In this document: one piece after another, positions 49,666 through 54,484 of the stretch
Position numbering within the stretch: position 1 is the first letter of the stretch
How the letters are laid out: every line of letters begins with the position of its first letter
Assembly (NCBI RefSeq): GCF_054482595.1
Contig: NZ_CM137008.1
Reading direction: 5' to 3' (one strand)
DNA: 64,000 bases
The notes under the pieces: generated by a model
Told to the model about the DNA's origin: nothing
Database searches by the model: none
The model's input: the letters and a program-made list of their open reading frames with translations, nothing else
Program-made: the position numbers and the translations under genes

Positions 49666-49717
49666 AAAAATGGCACCTTATAAAGCGCCATTTGAAACTG
49701 ATGACAAACGCAACATT

Positions 49718-49830
49718 GCCTGATGCGCTACGCTTATCAGGCCTACACGTTCACTGCAATCTATTGGATTTGAACGGTTTGTAGGCCGGATAAGGCGTTC
49801 ACGCCGCATCCGGCATGAACAAAGCCTACG
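49718..49830. repeat. REP/BIME cluster between convergent yddM and fdnI
   Basis: REP-like palindromes GCCTGATGCGCTACGCTTATCAGGCCTAC and GTAGGCCGGATAAGGCGTTCACGCCGCATCCGGC, flanked by hairpins at approx 49667-49695 and 49853-49878 that can serve as terminators. Confidence 0.75.
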
Positions 49831-49893: not shown

Positions 49894-50547
49894 TTATATC
49901 CCTTCTTCACTCTCTTTTTTCGCTTCTGCCTTCTCGATTTCACGATACCAGCGTGGATGGTGTTTCTTCGCCCAGCGACGGCTCACCTTCCCTTCGATCA
50001 TCCCTTTAATCGATCCTTTCACCCAAAATGCCATATACATATGGATCAGGATGGCGTGGATCAGGATGATACCCGCAGCCGCGTGGATCAGCAGGCTATA
50101 ACGGACAACCTGCATCGGGAAGTACTGCGCAAAGTACGGACGCCAGATAATCACCCCGGTCACCAACAGCACGAAAATCATGCTCATGATCGACCAGAAC
50201 ATCATCTTTTGCCCGGCGTTGTACTTACCGACATCCGCCACTTTGTGCTCATTGCCTTTTAATACTTCGACAATGTTCAACAGCCACGGAATATCTTTCT
50301 TATCCGGGATGTTGTGATGCACAAAACGCACAAACATAAACATCAGTGCGACGAAAATCGCAATGCCGAAGAATGGGTGCAAAATACGTCCCATCTGCGG
50401 CGTACCGAAGGTTTGCGTCAGCCATTGCAGCGTCGGGAAGAAGAACGAAATCCCGGACAGCGCCACCAGGAAGAAGCAAATCACCACGGTCCAGTGACAG
50501 GCGCGATCAATAAATTTGGTGCGCACAATCATTTTCGACTTACTCAT
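49894..50547 (-). CDS. fdnI: Formate dehydrogenase-N gamma subunit, cytochrome b556 (217 aa)
   Basis: Translation [32 protein letters not shown]...; start overlaps the fdnH stop. Confidence 0.93.
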
Positions 50548-51424
50548 GATGATCCTCCTCGTCATCGTCCACTTCCTTATTCGGGCCAATACCGATGTAG
50601 TGGAAAATCAACCCGGCAAAAGTGGCAATAAAGCCAGCCGCTGCCAGCGGTTTCAACGCGCCTTTCCACAGGCTTACCGAGGTGTCGATCTTCGGATCTT
50701 TCGGCAGACCGTGATACAGCTCCGGCTGATCGGCGTGATGCAGCACGTACATAACGTGCGTACCACCGACCCCTTCCGGGTTGTAGACGCCAGCATGTTC
50801 GTAACCACGCGCTTTCAGTTTCGCCACGCGCTGTTCCGCCAGCTCCAGCATCTCCTTCTTGGTGCCGAAGTGGATAGCCCCGGTCGGACAGGTTTTCACA
50901 CAAGCCGGTTCCTGGCCGACGCTGACGCGATCGACGCAGAGCGTGCATTTATATACCCGGTTATCCTCTTTGTTGAGGCGCGGAATATTAAACGGACACC
51001 CGGCAATGCAGTAACCACAGCCGATGCAGTTTTCCGACTGGAAATCGACAATCCCGTTAGCGTACTGAATGATTGCACCAGCAGACGGGCACGCCTTCAG
51101 GCAGCCGGGATCTTCACAGTGCATACAGCCGTCTTTACGGATCAGCCACTCCAGCTTGCCGTTCTGTTCGGTTTCGCTAAAGCGCATCACCGTCCAGGAC
51201 TTGGCGCTCAGATCGGCGGGGTTATCGTAAACCCCGACGCAGTGCCCCACTTCATCACGGATGTCGTTCCACTCCGAACACGCCACCTGACAGGCTTTAC
51301 AGCCGATACAGGTGGAAACGTCGATAAGTTTTGCGACTTCTGCTTTGTAATCACGCACCTGAGAAGGCGGCGTGATGGAGTTAGTTGCGGACCTTTTGAT
51401 AATGTCCTGCGTTTCCATAGCCAT
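50540..51424 (-). CDS. fdnH: Formate dehydrogenase-N beta subunit, 4x[4Fe-4S] ferredoxin (294 aa)
   Basis: Four CxxCxxCxxxCP clusters and C-terminal membrane anchor. Confidence 0.93.
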
Positions 51425-51436
51425 CTGTTCGCCCCC

Positions 51437-54400
51437 TTACGCCTTCTCGATGTTGACTAAGAACGCTTTATATTCCGGCGTTTGCGAGTTTGCATCACCG
51501 ACATTCGGCGTCAGAGTGTTAGCGATATAACCTTTACGCGCGACACCCTCAAAGCCCCAGTGGATTGGAATACCCACCGTTTCAACCTGCTGACCATTTA
51601 CATTCAGTGGTTTCAGACGACGCGTTACCACAGCCACCGCGCGGATAAAGCCACGCTTGCTTGAGACAGTGACACGATCGCCATTATTAATGCCTTTCGC
51701 CGCCGCCAGCGTTTCGCTGATTTCCACAAACTGTTCCGGCTGAGCAATTGCGTTGAGCAATGCGTGCTTGGTCCAGGTGTGGAAGTGCTCGGTCAGACGA
51801 TAGGTCGTACCCACATACGGGAACTGCTCTTTTTTACCCATCCGCAGTGCGTCTTGTTCATACAGACGAACAACCGGGTTAGACACCACGTTCGGATGCA
51901 GCGGGTTAGTGCCCAGCGGCGTTTCAATCGGCTCGTAGTGTTCCGGGAACGGACCTTCCGCCATTTTGTTGATGGCAAACAGGCGTCCCATCCCTTCCGG
52001 CTGCATGATAAACGGCCCGGTTGGCGTACCCGGTGCGGCATTGCCGAAGTCAGGAATATCGTTACCCGTCCACTTGCTGCCGTTCCACTGGATCAGCATC
52101 CGTTTCGGATCCCACGGTTTACCGTTGATATCCGCCGAAGCACGGTTGTACAGCACGCGACGGTTGAGCGGCCACGCCCAGGCCCATCCCAGCGTATTCC
52201 CCAGACCGGACGGGTCGGAGTTATCGCGGTTAGCCATCTGGTTGCCCTGCTCTGTCCAGCTACCGGTGTAGATCCAGCAAGAAGATGCGGTTGTACCGTC
52301 ATCACGCAGATGCGCAAAGCTACTCAGCAACTGACCTTTCTTCGCAATCAGCACGCCATTAGCATCATAGAGATCTTCCAGCGCATAGCCGTTGTTCTCT
52401 TTAGCTACTTCGTCAGATTGCGGTTCGTGCGGCTGCTTGTAGTTCCAGCTCATCTTCATCAGCGGTTCTACGCCTTTACCACCTTCGGCCTGGTACAGCT
52501 CGCGCAGGTGATGGTAGATACCCGCCAGAATTTCACCGTCGTTACGCGCTTCGCCCGGCGCATCCTGACCTTTCCAGTGCCACTGCAGCCAGCGACCGGA
52601 GTTAGCAATAGAACCATCTTCTTCAGCAAAGCAGGTCGAAGGCAGACGGAATACTTCAGTCTGAATAGACGCCGGATCGACATCGTTCGACTCGCCGTGG
52701 TTCTGCCAGAAGGTTGAGGTTTCAGTCACCAGCGGATCGATAACCACCATGTACTTCAGCTTGCTTAGGCAGCTCACCACTTTGTTTTTGTCCGGGAAGG
52801 ACGCAACCGGGTTAAAGCCCTGGCAGAAATAACCGGTGACTTTGCCTTCATCCATCATGTTGAAATACTTGATGACGTCGTAGGTCTGGTCCCACTTCGG
52901 CAGCCAGTCATAGCCCCAGTTGTTCTCTTTCTGCGCGGCATCGCCATAGAAAGATTTCATCAGGCTAACGAAGAACTTCGGATAGTTGCTCCAGTAGTTC
53001 ACCTGACCAGCCAGCGTCGCTTTCGGCGTGTTCGCTTCCAGATACGACTGCAAATCAACCTGTTTTTCTGACGGCAGCGTCAGATAACCTGGCAGGCTGG
53101 TAGAGAGCAGACCTAAGTCAGTCAGACCCTGAATGTTGGAGTGACCACGCAATGCATTCACGCCGCCACCGGCCATACCCATGTTACCGAGCAGCAACTG
53201 GATCATCGCCATAGTACGGATGTTCTGCGCACCCACGGTGTGCTGCGTCCAGCCCAGCGCGTACAGGAAGGTGGTTGTGCGATTCGGTGCGCTGGTGGAG
53301 GCCAGCACTTCACACACTTTCAGGAAGTCGGCTTTTGGCGTACCACAGATGTTTTCAACAACGTCCGGCGTGTAGCGGGAAACGTGCGCTTTCAGCAGGT
53401 TCCACACACAGCGCGGATGAGTCAGTGTTTCATCGCGTTTCGCATAGCCGTTTTCATCGAACTGATAGTTCCAGGACGATTTATCGTATTGCCGTTTTTC
53501 AGCGTCGTAGCCGCTGAACAGACCGTCTTCGAAAGCAAAATCATCACGCACCAGCAGGCTGGCGTTGGTGTAATGCTTAACGTATTCGGCGTTGATTTTG
53601 TCGTTTTCGATCAGGTAGCGCAAAACGCCAGACAGGAACGTAATGTCCGTACCGGAACGAATAGGTGCGTAAATATCCGCCACAGAAGCGGTACGCGTAA
53701 AACGAGGATCGACAACGATCAAGGTTGCATCGTTGTTGTTTTTCGCTTCCATCGCCCAGCGGAAACCGACGGGATGCGCTTCAGCAGCGTTACCGCCCAT
53801 TACCATTACGACGTTAGCGTTTTTGATATCCACCCAGTGGTTGGTCATCGCACCGCGACCAAATGTTGGAGCAAGACTTGCTACCGTTGGTCCGTGTCAG
53901 ACGCGCGCCTGGTTGTCTACCGCCAGCATCCCGAGGGAGCGGGCAAATTTCTGTGTCAGCATCCCGGTTTCGTTGCTGGCACCGGAGGCACACAGCATAC
54001 CGGTAGAAAGCCAACGGTTTACCGTTACGCCCTGCTCGTTCTTTTCAATAAAGTTAGCGTCACGGTCAGCTTTCATCAGCTTTGCAATACGGGAGAATGC
54101 TTCTTCCCAGCTAATGCGCTGCCATTTGTCAGAACCTGGCGCACGATATTCCGGGTAGCGCAGACGGTTTTCGCTGTTGACGTAATCCAGCAAACCGGCC
54201 CCTTTTGGGCACAGCGCACCACGGCTTACCGGATGATCCGGGTCACCTTCAATGTGATAAATCGCTTCTCTGGCGTTTTTCGCGCCATCACCCAGGCTAT
54301 ACATCAATAGCCCGCAACCTACGGAACAGTATGTGCAGGTGTTACGGATCTCTTTAGCGCGTAATAATTTGTAGTTTCGCGCCTGAGCCAGTGCTTGCTT

Positions 54401-54484
54401 CGGGGCAAAGCCCAATGCCGCTACCGTTGTTCCAGCCATACCGCCCGCGCAGATTTTAAAAAATTGTCTGCGACTGACGTCCAT
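51437..54484 (-). CDS. fdnG: Formate dehydrogenase-N alpha subunit, selenoprotein (1015 aa) with in-frame UGA (Sec) at codon 196 (plus-strand 53897-53899)
   Basis: Track ORFs 53897-54484 and 51437-53848 are in the same frame, separated only by one TGA; N-terminal Tat motif SRRQFFK; molybdopterin domains. Confidence 0.92.
53855..53896 (-). other. Candidate SECIS stem-loop directly 3-prime of the fdnG UGA
   Basis: mRNA segment immediately after UGA contains the hairpin GCAAGUCUUGC at the position expected for a bacterial SECIS. Confidence 0.55.

What the first reader, a model, noticed from the sequence alone, without database searches (positions are those of the whole stretch)
53855..53899. 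fdnG in-frame UGA with candidate SECIS hairpin
The fdnG frame is continuous for 1016 codons except for a single TGA at codon 196 (plus-strand 53897-53899), which the ORF track therefore splits into two ORFs. The mRNA immediately downstream can form the stem-loop GCAAGUCUUGC at the position expected for SelB recognition. Any automated annotation of this window will miscall fdnG as two genes unless the Sec codon is recognised.
Basis: partly seen in the sequence, partly recalled or inferred. Interest (0 to 1): 0.45.

Follow-up and report, generated by a model that had tools for sequence, protein, structure and literature searches.

The report
E. coli fdnG selenocysteine codon and SECIS
The in-frame TGA in this gene is the well-known selenocysteine codon of E. 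coli formate dehydrogenase-N, and the RNA hairpin just after it is the known signal that makes the ribosome insert selenocysteine instead of stopping; this is real but ordinary.

Summary
Window 51437-54484 (minus strand) is E. coli fdnG, 100% identical to RefSeq copies. It has exactly one internal stop, a TGA at codon 196 (53897-53899). Rfam's SECIS_3 model matches 53844-53902 (-) at 84.3 bits (gathering score 63, E about 1e-19), the only gathering-level RNA hit in the 64 kb window. Bulged U17 and loop G23/U24 sit in the same register as in fdhF. The folding energy of this one sequence is not better than shuffles; the real evidence is comparative. In 109 distinct homologous elements from many phyla the upper stem covaries. 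Two stem pairs made only of synonymous codon positions are paired in 70 of 70 sequences, using several pair types. A 71-nt block is identical in fdoG and in seven other Enterobacterales species, where third-codon positions elsewhere are mostly 43-59% identical (82% in E. albertii). In solved structure 1KQF the residue aligned with the TGA is non-standard. The annotation warning is half right: RefSeq/PGAP calls one CDS, yet the split 195-aa and 803-aa products are common in public collections. Novelty: already known.

The parts
51437..54484 (-). fdnG, alpha (catalytic) subunit of formate dehydrogenase-N; 1015 residues including Sec196, plus the stop codon
   Evidence: One frame with a single internal TGA. 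100% identical to RefSeq fdnG, which is annotated as one CDS. TIGR01553 matches at 279.5 and 1316.1 bits on the two halves. 1kqf_A matches residues 1-1015 at 2391 bits.
53897..53899 (-). UGA codon 196, decoded as selenocysteine (motif U-H-G-P)
   Evidence: It falls on the missing TIGR01553 profile position 195. It aligns with the non-standard residue X196 of 1kqf_A and with the X of the 'selenocysteine-containing' Desulfovibrio FdhA chains. The UHxP motif is listed for this family in PMC13188914.
53844..53902 (-). SECIS element as delimited by Rfam SECIS_3 (RF01989)
   Evidence: 84.3 bits against a gathering score of 63, E = 1.8e-19, full-length match 1-59 of 59.
53868..53885 (-). Upper stem-loop, nt 15-32 after the U of UGA (GGUAGCAAGUCUUGCUCC); the inferred SelB-binding hairpin
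   Evidence: Folds as ((.(((((...))))))) in every context tried. 5 of 7 pairs show changes on both sides across 109 sequences. The synonymous-site pairs are paired in 70 of 70. It corresponds to the 17-nt fdhF upper stem-loop, nt 15-31, described in PMC8659212.
53883..53883 (-). Bulged U17
   Evidence: Unpaired in all folds and in the same position as fdhF U17. Described as a SelB contact in PMC8659212. Its invariance in alignment A1 was forced by my search pattern and is not evidence.
53875..53877 (-). Apical loop G23 U24 C25
   Evidence: G23 and U24 are held at the RNA level: codon 203 is GGU in 56 of 59 Gly cases and AGU in 30 of 31 Ser cases, while two other Gly codons in the same sequences end in U in only 9 and 13 of 59.
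53854..53896 (-). Full paired extent, including the lower stem (register uncertain)
   Evidence: The Rfam consensus pairs model positions 7-49. The ViennaRNA fold uses a different lower-stem register. The lower helix is only 68.6% paired across homologues, with little covariation.
53832..53902 (-). 71-nt block with no substitutions across Enterobacterales fdnG/fdoG genes
   Evidence: It is the longest identical run between fdnG and fdoG and starts at codon 195. The same block is identical in Yersinia, Photorhabdus, Providencia, Citrobacter, Enterobacter and Superficieibacter, where third-position identity elsewhere is 43-59%.
54386..54484 (-). N-terminal signal peptide with a twin-arginine motif (S-R-R-Q-F-F-K), residues 1-33
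   Evidence: Read from the translation. Calling it a Tat signal rests on general knowledge of FDH-N and was not tested here.
50540..51424 (-). fdnH, iron-sulfur beta subunit
   Evidence: TIGR01582 at 482 bits against a cut-off of 334.7; RefSeq annotation.
49894..50547 (-). fdnI, cytochrome b gamma subunit
   Evidence: NF007558 at 486.5 bits against a cut-off of 339, with the match starting at residue 15 of the mechanical ORF. The RefSeq CDS is 654 nt.

Best explanation
This is the selenocysteine recoding site of E. coli fdnG. The mRNA just 3' of UGA-196 folds into a SECIS hairpin. Its upper stem-loop (nt 15-32 after the U of UGA) presents bulged U17 and loop bases G23/U24. The specialised elongation factor SelB, carrying GTP and Sec-tRNA(Sec), binds that hairpin and is held next to the approaching ribosome. 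When UGA reaches the A site, SelB delivers Sec-tRNA(Sec) in competition with release factor 2, and translation continues to give the 1015-residue subunit. Sec196 is the residue assigned to the molybdenum active site in the solved FDH-N structure. Shown here: the single in-frame UGA; the gene's identity; the match to the curated SECIS model; the fdhF-like register of U17/G23/U24; RNA-level covariation and freezing of synonymous sites; and a non-standard residue at position 196 in the solved protein. Inferred from established knowledge (reviews PMC13188914 and PMC8659212, and Berg et al. 1991 as cited there): SelB binding, competition with RF2, and actual selenium incorporation.
For: There is one internal stop only, at codon 196. 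The DNA is 100% identical to RefSeq fdnG, annotated as one CDS in the fdnGHI context. Rfam SECIS_3 scores 84.3 bits against 63. The 59-nt element is in 5425 of 5426 complete E. coli genomes, with a median of two places per genome, at >=99% identity in 5432 of 5433 records. The fdoG element is identical and the fdhF element matches SECIS_2 at 87.1 bits. U17, G23 and U24 are in the same register as fdhF, with 21 of the first 25 nt identical. In 109 distinct elements from many phyla, found with a pattern that fixed only protein-constrained positions, the upper helix has 5 of 7 pairs with changes on both sides. The covariation score is 0.245 against 0.135 in shuffles (0 of 500 reach it) and at most 0.112 with slid partners. 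Pairs 21-33 and 24-30, made only of synonymous third positions, are paired in 70 of 70 sequences that encode the same amino acids, using 4 and 2 Watson-Crick types (0 of 20000 shuffles reach this). Codon choice keeps G23 and U24. The 71-nt block has 19 of 19 synonymous-capable codons identical to fdoG, against 57% gene-wide, and is identical in seven other Enterobacterales species. Chain 1kqf_A has a non-standard residue at 196. All four criteria of the published bacterial SECIS model are met.
Against: Nothing contradicts it. Limits: the folding energy of the single sequence is not significantly lower than shuffles. The lower stem is poorly supported by covariation, and its register differs between Rfam and ViennaRNA. 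About 19 of the 109 homologues (the Desulfovibrio-type VAALAESFG class) do not fit this upper-stem register and fold with the loop 4 nt further 3'. The invariance of U17 in my alignment is an artefact of the search pattern. The sequences are related, so the shuffle controls overstate significance; the slid-partner control does not have this problem. SelB binding and selenium incorporation were not, and cannot be, tested with these tools. No tRNA(Sec) gene or other sel gene lies in the window.
Confidence: 0.97

Rival explanations
1. The TGA is a genuine nonsense mutation and fdnG is a broken gene (pseudogene) in this strain.
For: A mechanical ORF finder splits the gene, and split products are deposited in public databases.
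Against: The same TGA-bearing 59-mer is in 5425 of 5426 complete E. coli genomes and in both paralogues. The frame is intact for 819 codons after the TGA. The TGA falls on the one missing position of the family profile and on the non-standard residue of the solved structure. More than 100 homologues from many phyla carry TGA at the same codon.
Confidence: 0.005
2. The hairpin is a by-product of protein-coding constraint on a conserved active-site peptide (V-U-H-G-P-T-V-A-S-L-A-P-T-F-G-R-G-A-M), not a selected RNA structure.
For: The peptide is highly conserved. The fold energy is not better than shuffles.
Against: Pairs made only of synonymous third positions covary perfectly, 70 of 70, with up to four Watson-Crick types. 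Amino-acid changes come in compensating pairs that keep the stem, for example Ala/Ala to Ser/Gly and Val/Thr. Gly-203 uses GGU in 56 of 59 cases, against 9-13 of 59 at other Gly codons in the same sequences. Synonymous sites are frozen across genera.
Confidence: 0.01
3. The 71-nt identity between fdnG and fdoG comes from recent gene conversion between the paralogues, not from selection on the RNA.
For: It is the longest identical run between two genes that are 74.7% identical overall. Both copies sit in one genome, so conversion is possible.
Against: The same 71 nt are identical in Yersinia, Photorhabdus, Providencia and Citrobacter genes, whose third positions elsewhere are only 43-56% identical to E. 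coli fdnG. That requires long-term purifying selection. Conversion could still add to it locally.
Confidence: 0.05
4. UGA-196 acts mainly as a selenium-sensing terminator, so that the 195-residue N-terminal fragment is a meaningful product.
For: By general knowledge, Sec insertion competes with release factor 2, and termination dominates without selenium. The fragment would carry the signal peptide and the first Fe-S cysteine motif.
Against: There is no evidence here for a function of the fragment. It lacks the cofactor-binding bulk of the enzyme. This would add to, not replace, the Sec-insertion reading.
Confidence: 0.02

Closest known systems
E. coli K-12 fdnG Sec codon and SECIS (Berg et al. 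1991, as cited in PMC13188914; Rfam RF01989 SECIS_3)
   Same: It is the same element. The gene is 100% identical to RefSeq fdnG copies and gives a full-length match to RF01989 at 84.3 bits.
   Different: Nothing of substance. The window is simply another E. coli strain.
E. coli fdoG SECIS (formate dehydrogenase-O)
   Same: The 59-nt element is identical, with the same Rfam score, and Sec is also at codon 196. The identity extends to 71 nt.
   Different: The surrounding gene is only 74.7% identical in nucleotides and 76.9% in amino acids. The operon context differs (fdoGHI-fdhE), and the gamma subunit matches a different model.
E. coli fdhF SECIS (formate dehydrogenase-H; Rfam RF01988 SECIS_2), the experimentally dissected prototype
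   Same: The hairpin starts right after the UGA. U17 is bulged, G23 and U24 are in the apical loop at the same distance from the UGA, and 21 of the first 25 nt are identical.
   Different: The apical loop is GGUC (4 nt) in fdhF and GUC (3 nt) here. The upper stem-loop is 17 nt there and 18 nt here. The 3' half and the lower stem are unrelated in sequence. The window element scores only 28.8 bits on SECIS_2, below its gathering score of 70. Sec is at codon 140 of a 715-residue cytoplasmic enzyme.
Desulfovibrio-type FdhA SECIS (periplasmic Sec-containing FDH, e.g. PDB 8cm4, 1h0h)
   Same: A homologous enzyme with TGA at the homologous codon and a hairpin just downstream.
   Different: The peptide is VAALAESFG. 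The predicted hairpin (GCGGCUCUGGCAGAGUCGU) has its loop 4 nt further 3', and the sequence does not fit the E. coli upper-stem register.

Membership tests
Rfam RF01989 (SECIS_3) | Covariance-model score at or above the curated gathering score (63 bits) | tested here: met
   84.3 bits, E = 1.8e-19, model positions 1-59 of 59, not truncated.
Bacterial SECIS consensus model (as summarised in PMC13188914, Fig. 2A) | (i) Apical loop of 3-9 nt and upper stem of 4-16 bp | tested here: met
   The loop is GUC (3 nt). The upper stem is 5 bp, then bulged U17, then 2 bp; the criteria are taken.
Bacterial SECIS consensus model (as summarised in PMC13188914, Fig. 2A) | (ii) G in one of the first two loop positions, usually followed by G or U | tested here: met
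   The loop begins G23 U24. G is kept in 89 of 109 homologues and U in 105 of 109 at these columns, which the search pattern left free.
Bacterial SECIS consensus model (as summarised in PMC13188914, Fig. 2A) | (iii) 16-37 nt between the UGA and the apical loop | tested here: met
   19 nt (positions 4-22) lie between the A of UGA and G23.
Bacterial SECIS consensus model (as summarised in PMC13188914, Fig. 2A) | (iv) Minimum free energy of -7.5 kcal/mol or lower | tested here: met
   -10.3 kcal/mol for the 40 nt after the UGA and -11.9 for 45 nt. Shuffles reach similar values, so this criterion discriminates weakly.
E. coli fdhF-type SelB recognition hairpin | Bulged U17 and loop G23/U24 at a fixed distance from the UGA, on an upper stem-loop starting at nt 15 | tested here: met
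   U17, G23 and U24 are in the same positions as in fdhF. The determinants are as described in PMC8659212.
E. coli fdhF-type SelB recognition hairpin | Physical binding by the C-terminal domains of SelB | not testable with these tools
   Needs a gel-shift or footprinting experiment. Inferred from the identity with the known E. coli element.
Selenoprotein formate dehydrogenase alpha subunit (TIGR01553; motif UHxP) | Family profile matched on both sides of the TGA, with the TGA at the catalytic Sec/Cys position, and the motif U-H-x-P | tested here: met
   Profile positions 1-194 and 196-1009 are matched by the two halves, and the C-terminal half alone scores 1316 bits against a cut-off of 814. 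The motif is U-H-G-P. The TGA aligns with X196 in 1kqf_A.
Selenoprotein formate dehydrogenase alpha subunit (TIGR01553; motif UHxP) | Selenium actually incorporated at this codon | not testable with these tools
   Needs 75Se labelling or mass spectrometry. Reported for E. coli fdnG according to the title of Berg et al. 1991, cited in PMC13188914.
FDH-N (fdnGHI) rather than FDH-O (fdoGHI) | FDH-N-specific gamma subunit and the fdn chromosomal context | tested here: met
   NF007558 (FDH-N gamma) scores 486.5 bits against a cut-off of 339, while the FDH-O-type model NF007924 scores 268 bits, below its cut-off of 341. The neighbours are narU, yddG, yddM, adhP and maeA, and there is no fdhE as there is at the fdo locus.

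The most novel reading that the evidence does not exclude
The block with no substitutions across Enterobacterales is 71 nt long (53832-53902). It runs 12 nt past the 3' end of the Rfam model and far beyond the 18-nt hairpin thought sufficient for SelB binding. The lower stem, by contrast, shows little covariation across phyla. This could mean that, in this lineage, the sequence and not just the structure of the whole region is constrained by something beyond SelB recognition, such as contacts with the ribosome's mRNA entry channel, unwinding kinetics that time Sec delivery, or a second RNA or protein partner. The plainer explanation is that the three extra frozen synonymous sites (ACC, AAC, CAC) are simply the preferred codons of a highly conserved peptide.
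Probability: 0.1. Interest if true: 0.3.

Novelty: already known. Interest (0 to 1): 0.05.

Why it matters
It matters mainly for annotation quality. The site is one of the three classic E. coli selenoprotein genes, and nothing about it is new. A gene caller that does not handle selenocysteine reports two genes here, and the public collections do hold those split products in large numbers. Anyone annotating this window should join 53897..54484 and 51437..53896 into one CDS with a Sec exception at codon 196. A by-product of the check may be useful for teaching or benchmarking: the synonymous-site covariation, and the 71-nt block frozen across Enterobacterales, give a clean demonstration of RNA-level selection inside a coding sequence.

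Tried and rejected
(1) Single-sequence folding as a test of significance. The hairpin is the minimum-free-energy structure, but z-scores against dinucleotide shuffles are only -0.8 to -2.1, so I dropped it as evidence. (2) A longer 95-nt fold, to see whether the extra conserved 3' bases extend the lower stem. A CCAG/CUGG closing helix appears, but z = 0.0, so there is no support. (3) The Rfam lower-stem register. It contains A-G and A-C oppositions in E. coli, ViennaRNA prefers another register, and neither register covaries across phyla. The lower stem stays unresolved. (4) U17 conservation in alignment A1. I rejected it as evidence because my search pattern fixed the 'GT' of the Val codon. 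(5) Treating all 109 homologues as one structural class. About 19 Desulfovibrio-type sequences fold differently, so I give statistics both with and without them. (6) Literature. The primary papers on the fdnG hairpin are not in the held library. PMC6103685 is not held and PMC7590224 has nothing specific. I used the reviews PMC13188914 and PMC8659212 instead. (7) Looking for the Sec machinery in the window. There are no tRNA genes and no other Rfam hit at gathering level. selABCD lie elsewhere in E. coli, by general knowledge. I repeated them with X.
Full report
1. What is in the sequence.

On the minus strand, 51437-54484 translates as one frame of 1016 codons. The only internal stop is at codon 196, and the frame ends in a terminal stop. 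The TGA is at 53897-53899. A mechanical ORF list splits the gene into 53897..54484 (195 aa) and 51437..53848 (803 aa, counted from the first ATG after the stop). The coordinates and the description are correct.

2. What the gene is.

The 3048 nt are 100% identical to fdnG of several RefSeq E. coli genomes. 5425 of 5426 complete genomes hold a match covering at least 80% of the query. In RefSeq the gene is a single CDS flanked by narU, yddG, fdnH, fdnI, yddM, adhP and maeA. The two protein halves match NCBIfam TIGR01553 at profile positions 1-194 and 196-1009, so the TGA sits on the one position left uncovered. The C-terminal half alone scores 1316 bits, against a cut-off of 814.

The next two genes are the beta subunit (TIGR01582, 482 bits) and a gamma subunit. 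The gamma subunit passes the FDH-N-specific model (NF007558, 486.5 bits, cut-off 339) but not the FDH-O-type model (268 bits, cut-off 341). This is therefore fdnGHI and not the paralogous fdoGHI.

The solved FDH-N chain 1kqf_A (1015 residues) matches end to end. It shows a non-standard residue, printed 'X', at position 196, aligned with the TGA. The Desulfovibrio chains that their depositors call 'selenocysteine-containing' show the same.

3. The RNA element.

Rfam's SECIS_3 model (RF01989) matches 53844-53902 (-) over its full length. The score is 84.3 bits against a gathering score of 63, with E = 1.8e-19. It is the only family to reach its gathering score anywhere in the 64 kb.

ViennaRNA places the same upper hairpin at the top of the minimum-free-energy structure for 18, 40, 45, 59 and 95 nt. 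The hairpin is G15-C32, G16-C31, bulged U17, A18-U30, G19-C29, C20-G28, A21-U27 and A22-U26, with the loop G23 U24 C25.

I compared it with fdhF, the experimentally dissected prototype, which matches SECIS_2 at 87.1 bits. Of the first 25 nt, 21 are identical, and U17, G23 and U24 fall at the same positions. The review PMC8659212 describes these bases as the bulge and loop determinants, with U17 and G23 as the SelB contacts, on an upper stem-loop spanning nt 15-31. All four criteria of the published bacterial SECIS model (PMC13188914) are met: a 3-nt loop on a 5+2 bp stem, G first in the loop and followed by U, 19 nt of spacing, and a free energy of -10.3 to -11.9 kcal/mol.

4. Is it more than chance?

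Folding energy alone says no. Z-scores against dinucleotide-preserving shuffles run from 0.0 to -2.1.

(a) Within E. coli. The 59-mer occurs in 5425 of 5426 genomes, with a median of two places per genome (fdnG and fdoG), and at >=99% identity in 5432 of 5433 records. The one variant I looked at carries a synonymous CAC-to-CAU change at +6, outside the upper stem.

(b) Between paralogues. fdnG and fdoG are 74.7% identical in nucleotides. Their longest identical run, 71 nt, starts at codon 195 and covers the element. All 19 synonymous-capable codons in codons 195-214 are identical, against 57% gene-wide (binomial P about 2.5e-5).

(c) Between genera. The same 59-mer is identical in Yersinia aldovae, Photorhabdus, Providencia, Citrobacter, Enterobacter, E. 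albertii and Superficieibacter. In six of these seven species, third-codon positions elsewhere in the gene are only 43-59% identical to E. coli fdnG; E. albertii is at 82%. In those six the longest identical run again covers the element, at 71 or 83 nt. This makes gene conversion between the two E. coli paralogues an insufficient explanation.

(d) Across phyla. I scanned 100,044 species genomes with a pattern that fixes only protein-constrained positions (U-H-x3-V-x2-L-x3-F-G-R-G-A-M-T).
- On the Rfam structure, the upper helix has 5 of 7 pairs with changes on both sides. Pair 21-33 alone appears as G-C 55, C-G 16, U-A 14 and A-U 7.
- The covariation score is 0.245, against 0.135 +/- 0.006 in shuffles (0 of 500 reach it) and at most 0.112 when partners are slid by 1-3 columns.
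- The cleanest test uses sequences that encode the same V-A-x-L-A residues as E. coli. There, the two pairs built only from synonymous third positions are paired in 70 of 70, with four and two Watson-Crick types. The shuffle mean is 37-41, and 0 of 20000 shuffles reach 70.
- Where amino acids do change, they change in compensating pairs, for example Ala/Ala to Ser/Gly and to Val/Thr.
- G23 and U24 are held by codon choice. Gly-203 is GGU in 56 of 59 sequences, while two other Gly codons in the same sequences end in U in 9 and 13 of 59. Ser-203 is AGU in 30 of 31.

Caveats. The sequences are related, so the shuffle controls overstate significance. U17 was fixed by my pattern and cannot count as evidence. 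The lower helix is only 68.6% paired, shows little covariation, and has an uncertain register. About 19 Desulfovibrio-type sequences form a different hairpin, shifted 4 nt towards the 3' end.

5. Mechanism.

The best-supported reading is the established one. SelB, carrying GTP and Sec-tRNA(Sec), binds the upper hairpin. When UGA-196 enters the A site, SelB delivers selenocysteine in competition with release factor 2. The ribosome then unwinds the hairpin and goes on to complete the 1015-residue subunit. Sec196 is at the molybdenum site.

Shown here are the codon, the element, its register, the selection on it at the RNA level, and the non-standard residue in the crystal structure. SelB binding and selenium incorporation are inferred from the literature. 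PMC13188914 states that the best-characterised bacterial SECIS elements are those of the three E. coli formate dehydrogenases, and it cites Berg et al. 1991 for fdnG.

6. The annotation claim.

RefSeq/PGAP annotates one CDS through the TGA, so 'any automated annotation will miscall' is too strong. The risk is real, however. The exact 803-aa product has GenBank accessions such as ANE62139.1 and was seen on 194 contigs. Both belong to a cluster of 7496 members, and the members read include fragments of many lengths.

7. Verdict.

The feature is already known: it is the same element as in E. coli K-12, and it is a curated Rfam family. Interest is low.

The only loose end is that the frozen block is 71 nt long, extending 12 nt beyond the 3' end of the Rfam model, while the lower stem shows little covariation. 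The three extra frozen synonymous sites are all preferred codons (ACC, AAC, CAC), so this probably means nothing more.

Noticed in passing
window 53832-53902 (-): The block with zero substitutions among ten Enterobacterales fdnG/fdoG genes is 71 nt long. It extends 12 nt (CAACCACUGGGU) past the 3' end of the Rfam SECIS_3 model, and third positions vary at the usual rate immediately on both sides. A longer fold gives no significant extra structure (z = 0.0).
   Followed up: partly
L007, L012, L016, L020, L027, L035, L036, L047, L058, L061, L067, L072, L075, L079, L092, L102, L105, L106, L109 (elements as listed): A second class of FdhA Sec sites, with the peptide V-A/P-A-L-A-E-S-F-G, mostly from Desulfobacterota and Chloroflexi. 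It does not fit the E. coli upper-stem register. It folds instead into a 9-bp hairpin (GCGGCUCUGGCAGAGUCGU) whose loop lies 4 nt further from the UGA.
   Followed up: partly
window 49703-49820, between fdnI and the next gene: Sub-threshold matches to naRNA4 (38.2 bits against a gathering score of 59.5) and to ES036. They look like REP/BIME-type palindromic repeats (GGCCGGAUAAGGCGUU.ACGCCGCAUCCGGCA). The K-12 fdhF neighbourhood (L003 912-1432) holds five full naRNA4 matches in tandem.
   Followed up: no
protein P0004, a 195-aa N-terminal fragment of FdnG: One GenBank record (EFN8991448.1) names a 195-aa member of the split-FdnG cluster 'sulfate ABC transporter substrate-binding protein'. This looks like an annotation error that follows from the split.
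   Followed up: no
L125 (NZ_CP061758.1, E. coli O68:H12 strain 97.3): This is the only record whose best 59-mer match is not >=99% identical. It has a synonymous CAC-to-CAU change at +6 after the UGA. The record has just one match instead of two. The CDS is 3051 nt, the length of K-12 fdoG, but is labelled fdnG, which suggests that PGAP gives both paralogues the same name and that this strain lacks one of them.
   Followed up: partly
E. coli genome searches: 7-8 of about 10,800 matches to fdnG or its SECIS lie on records typed as plasmids, and one of the 5426 complete genomes has no match at all.
   Followed up: no
window 49894-50589 (-): The mechanical ORF for fdnI starts at a TTG 14 codons upstream of the annotated start. 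The family model matches from residue 15, and the annotated fdnI (49894-50547) overlaps the end of fdnH (50540-51424) by 8 nt.
   Followed up: partly
window 53854-53896 (-): The Rfam consensus and ViennaRNA disagree on the register of the lower stem. Rfam bulges C14 and opposes A12-G44 and A8-C48 in E. coli. ViennaRNA pairs C13-G44, C14-G43 and A12-U45 and bulges G47. Neither register covaries across phyla.
   Followed up: partly
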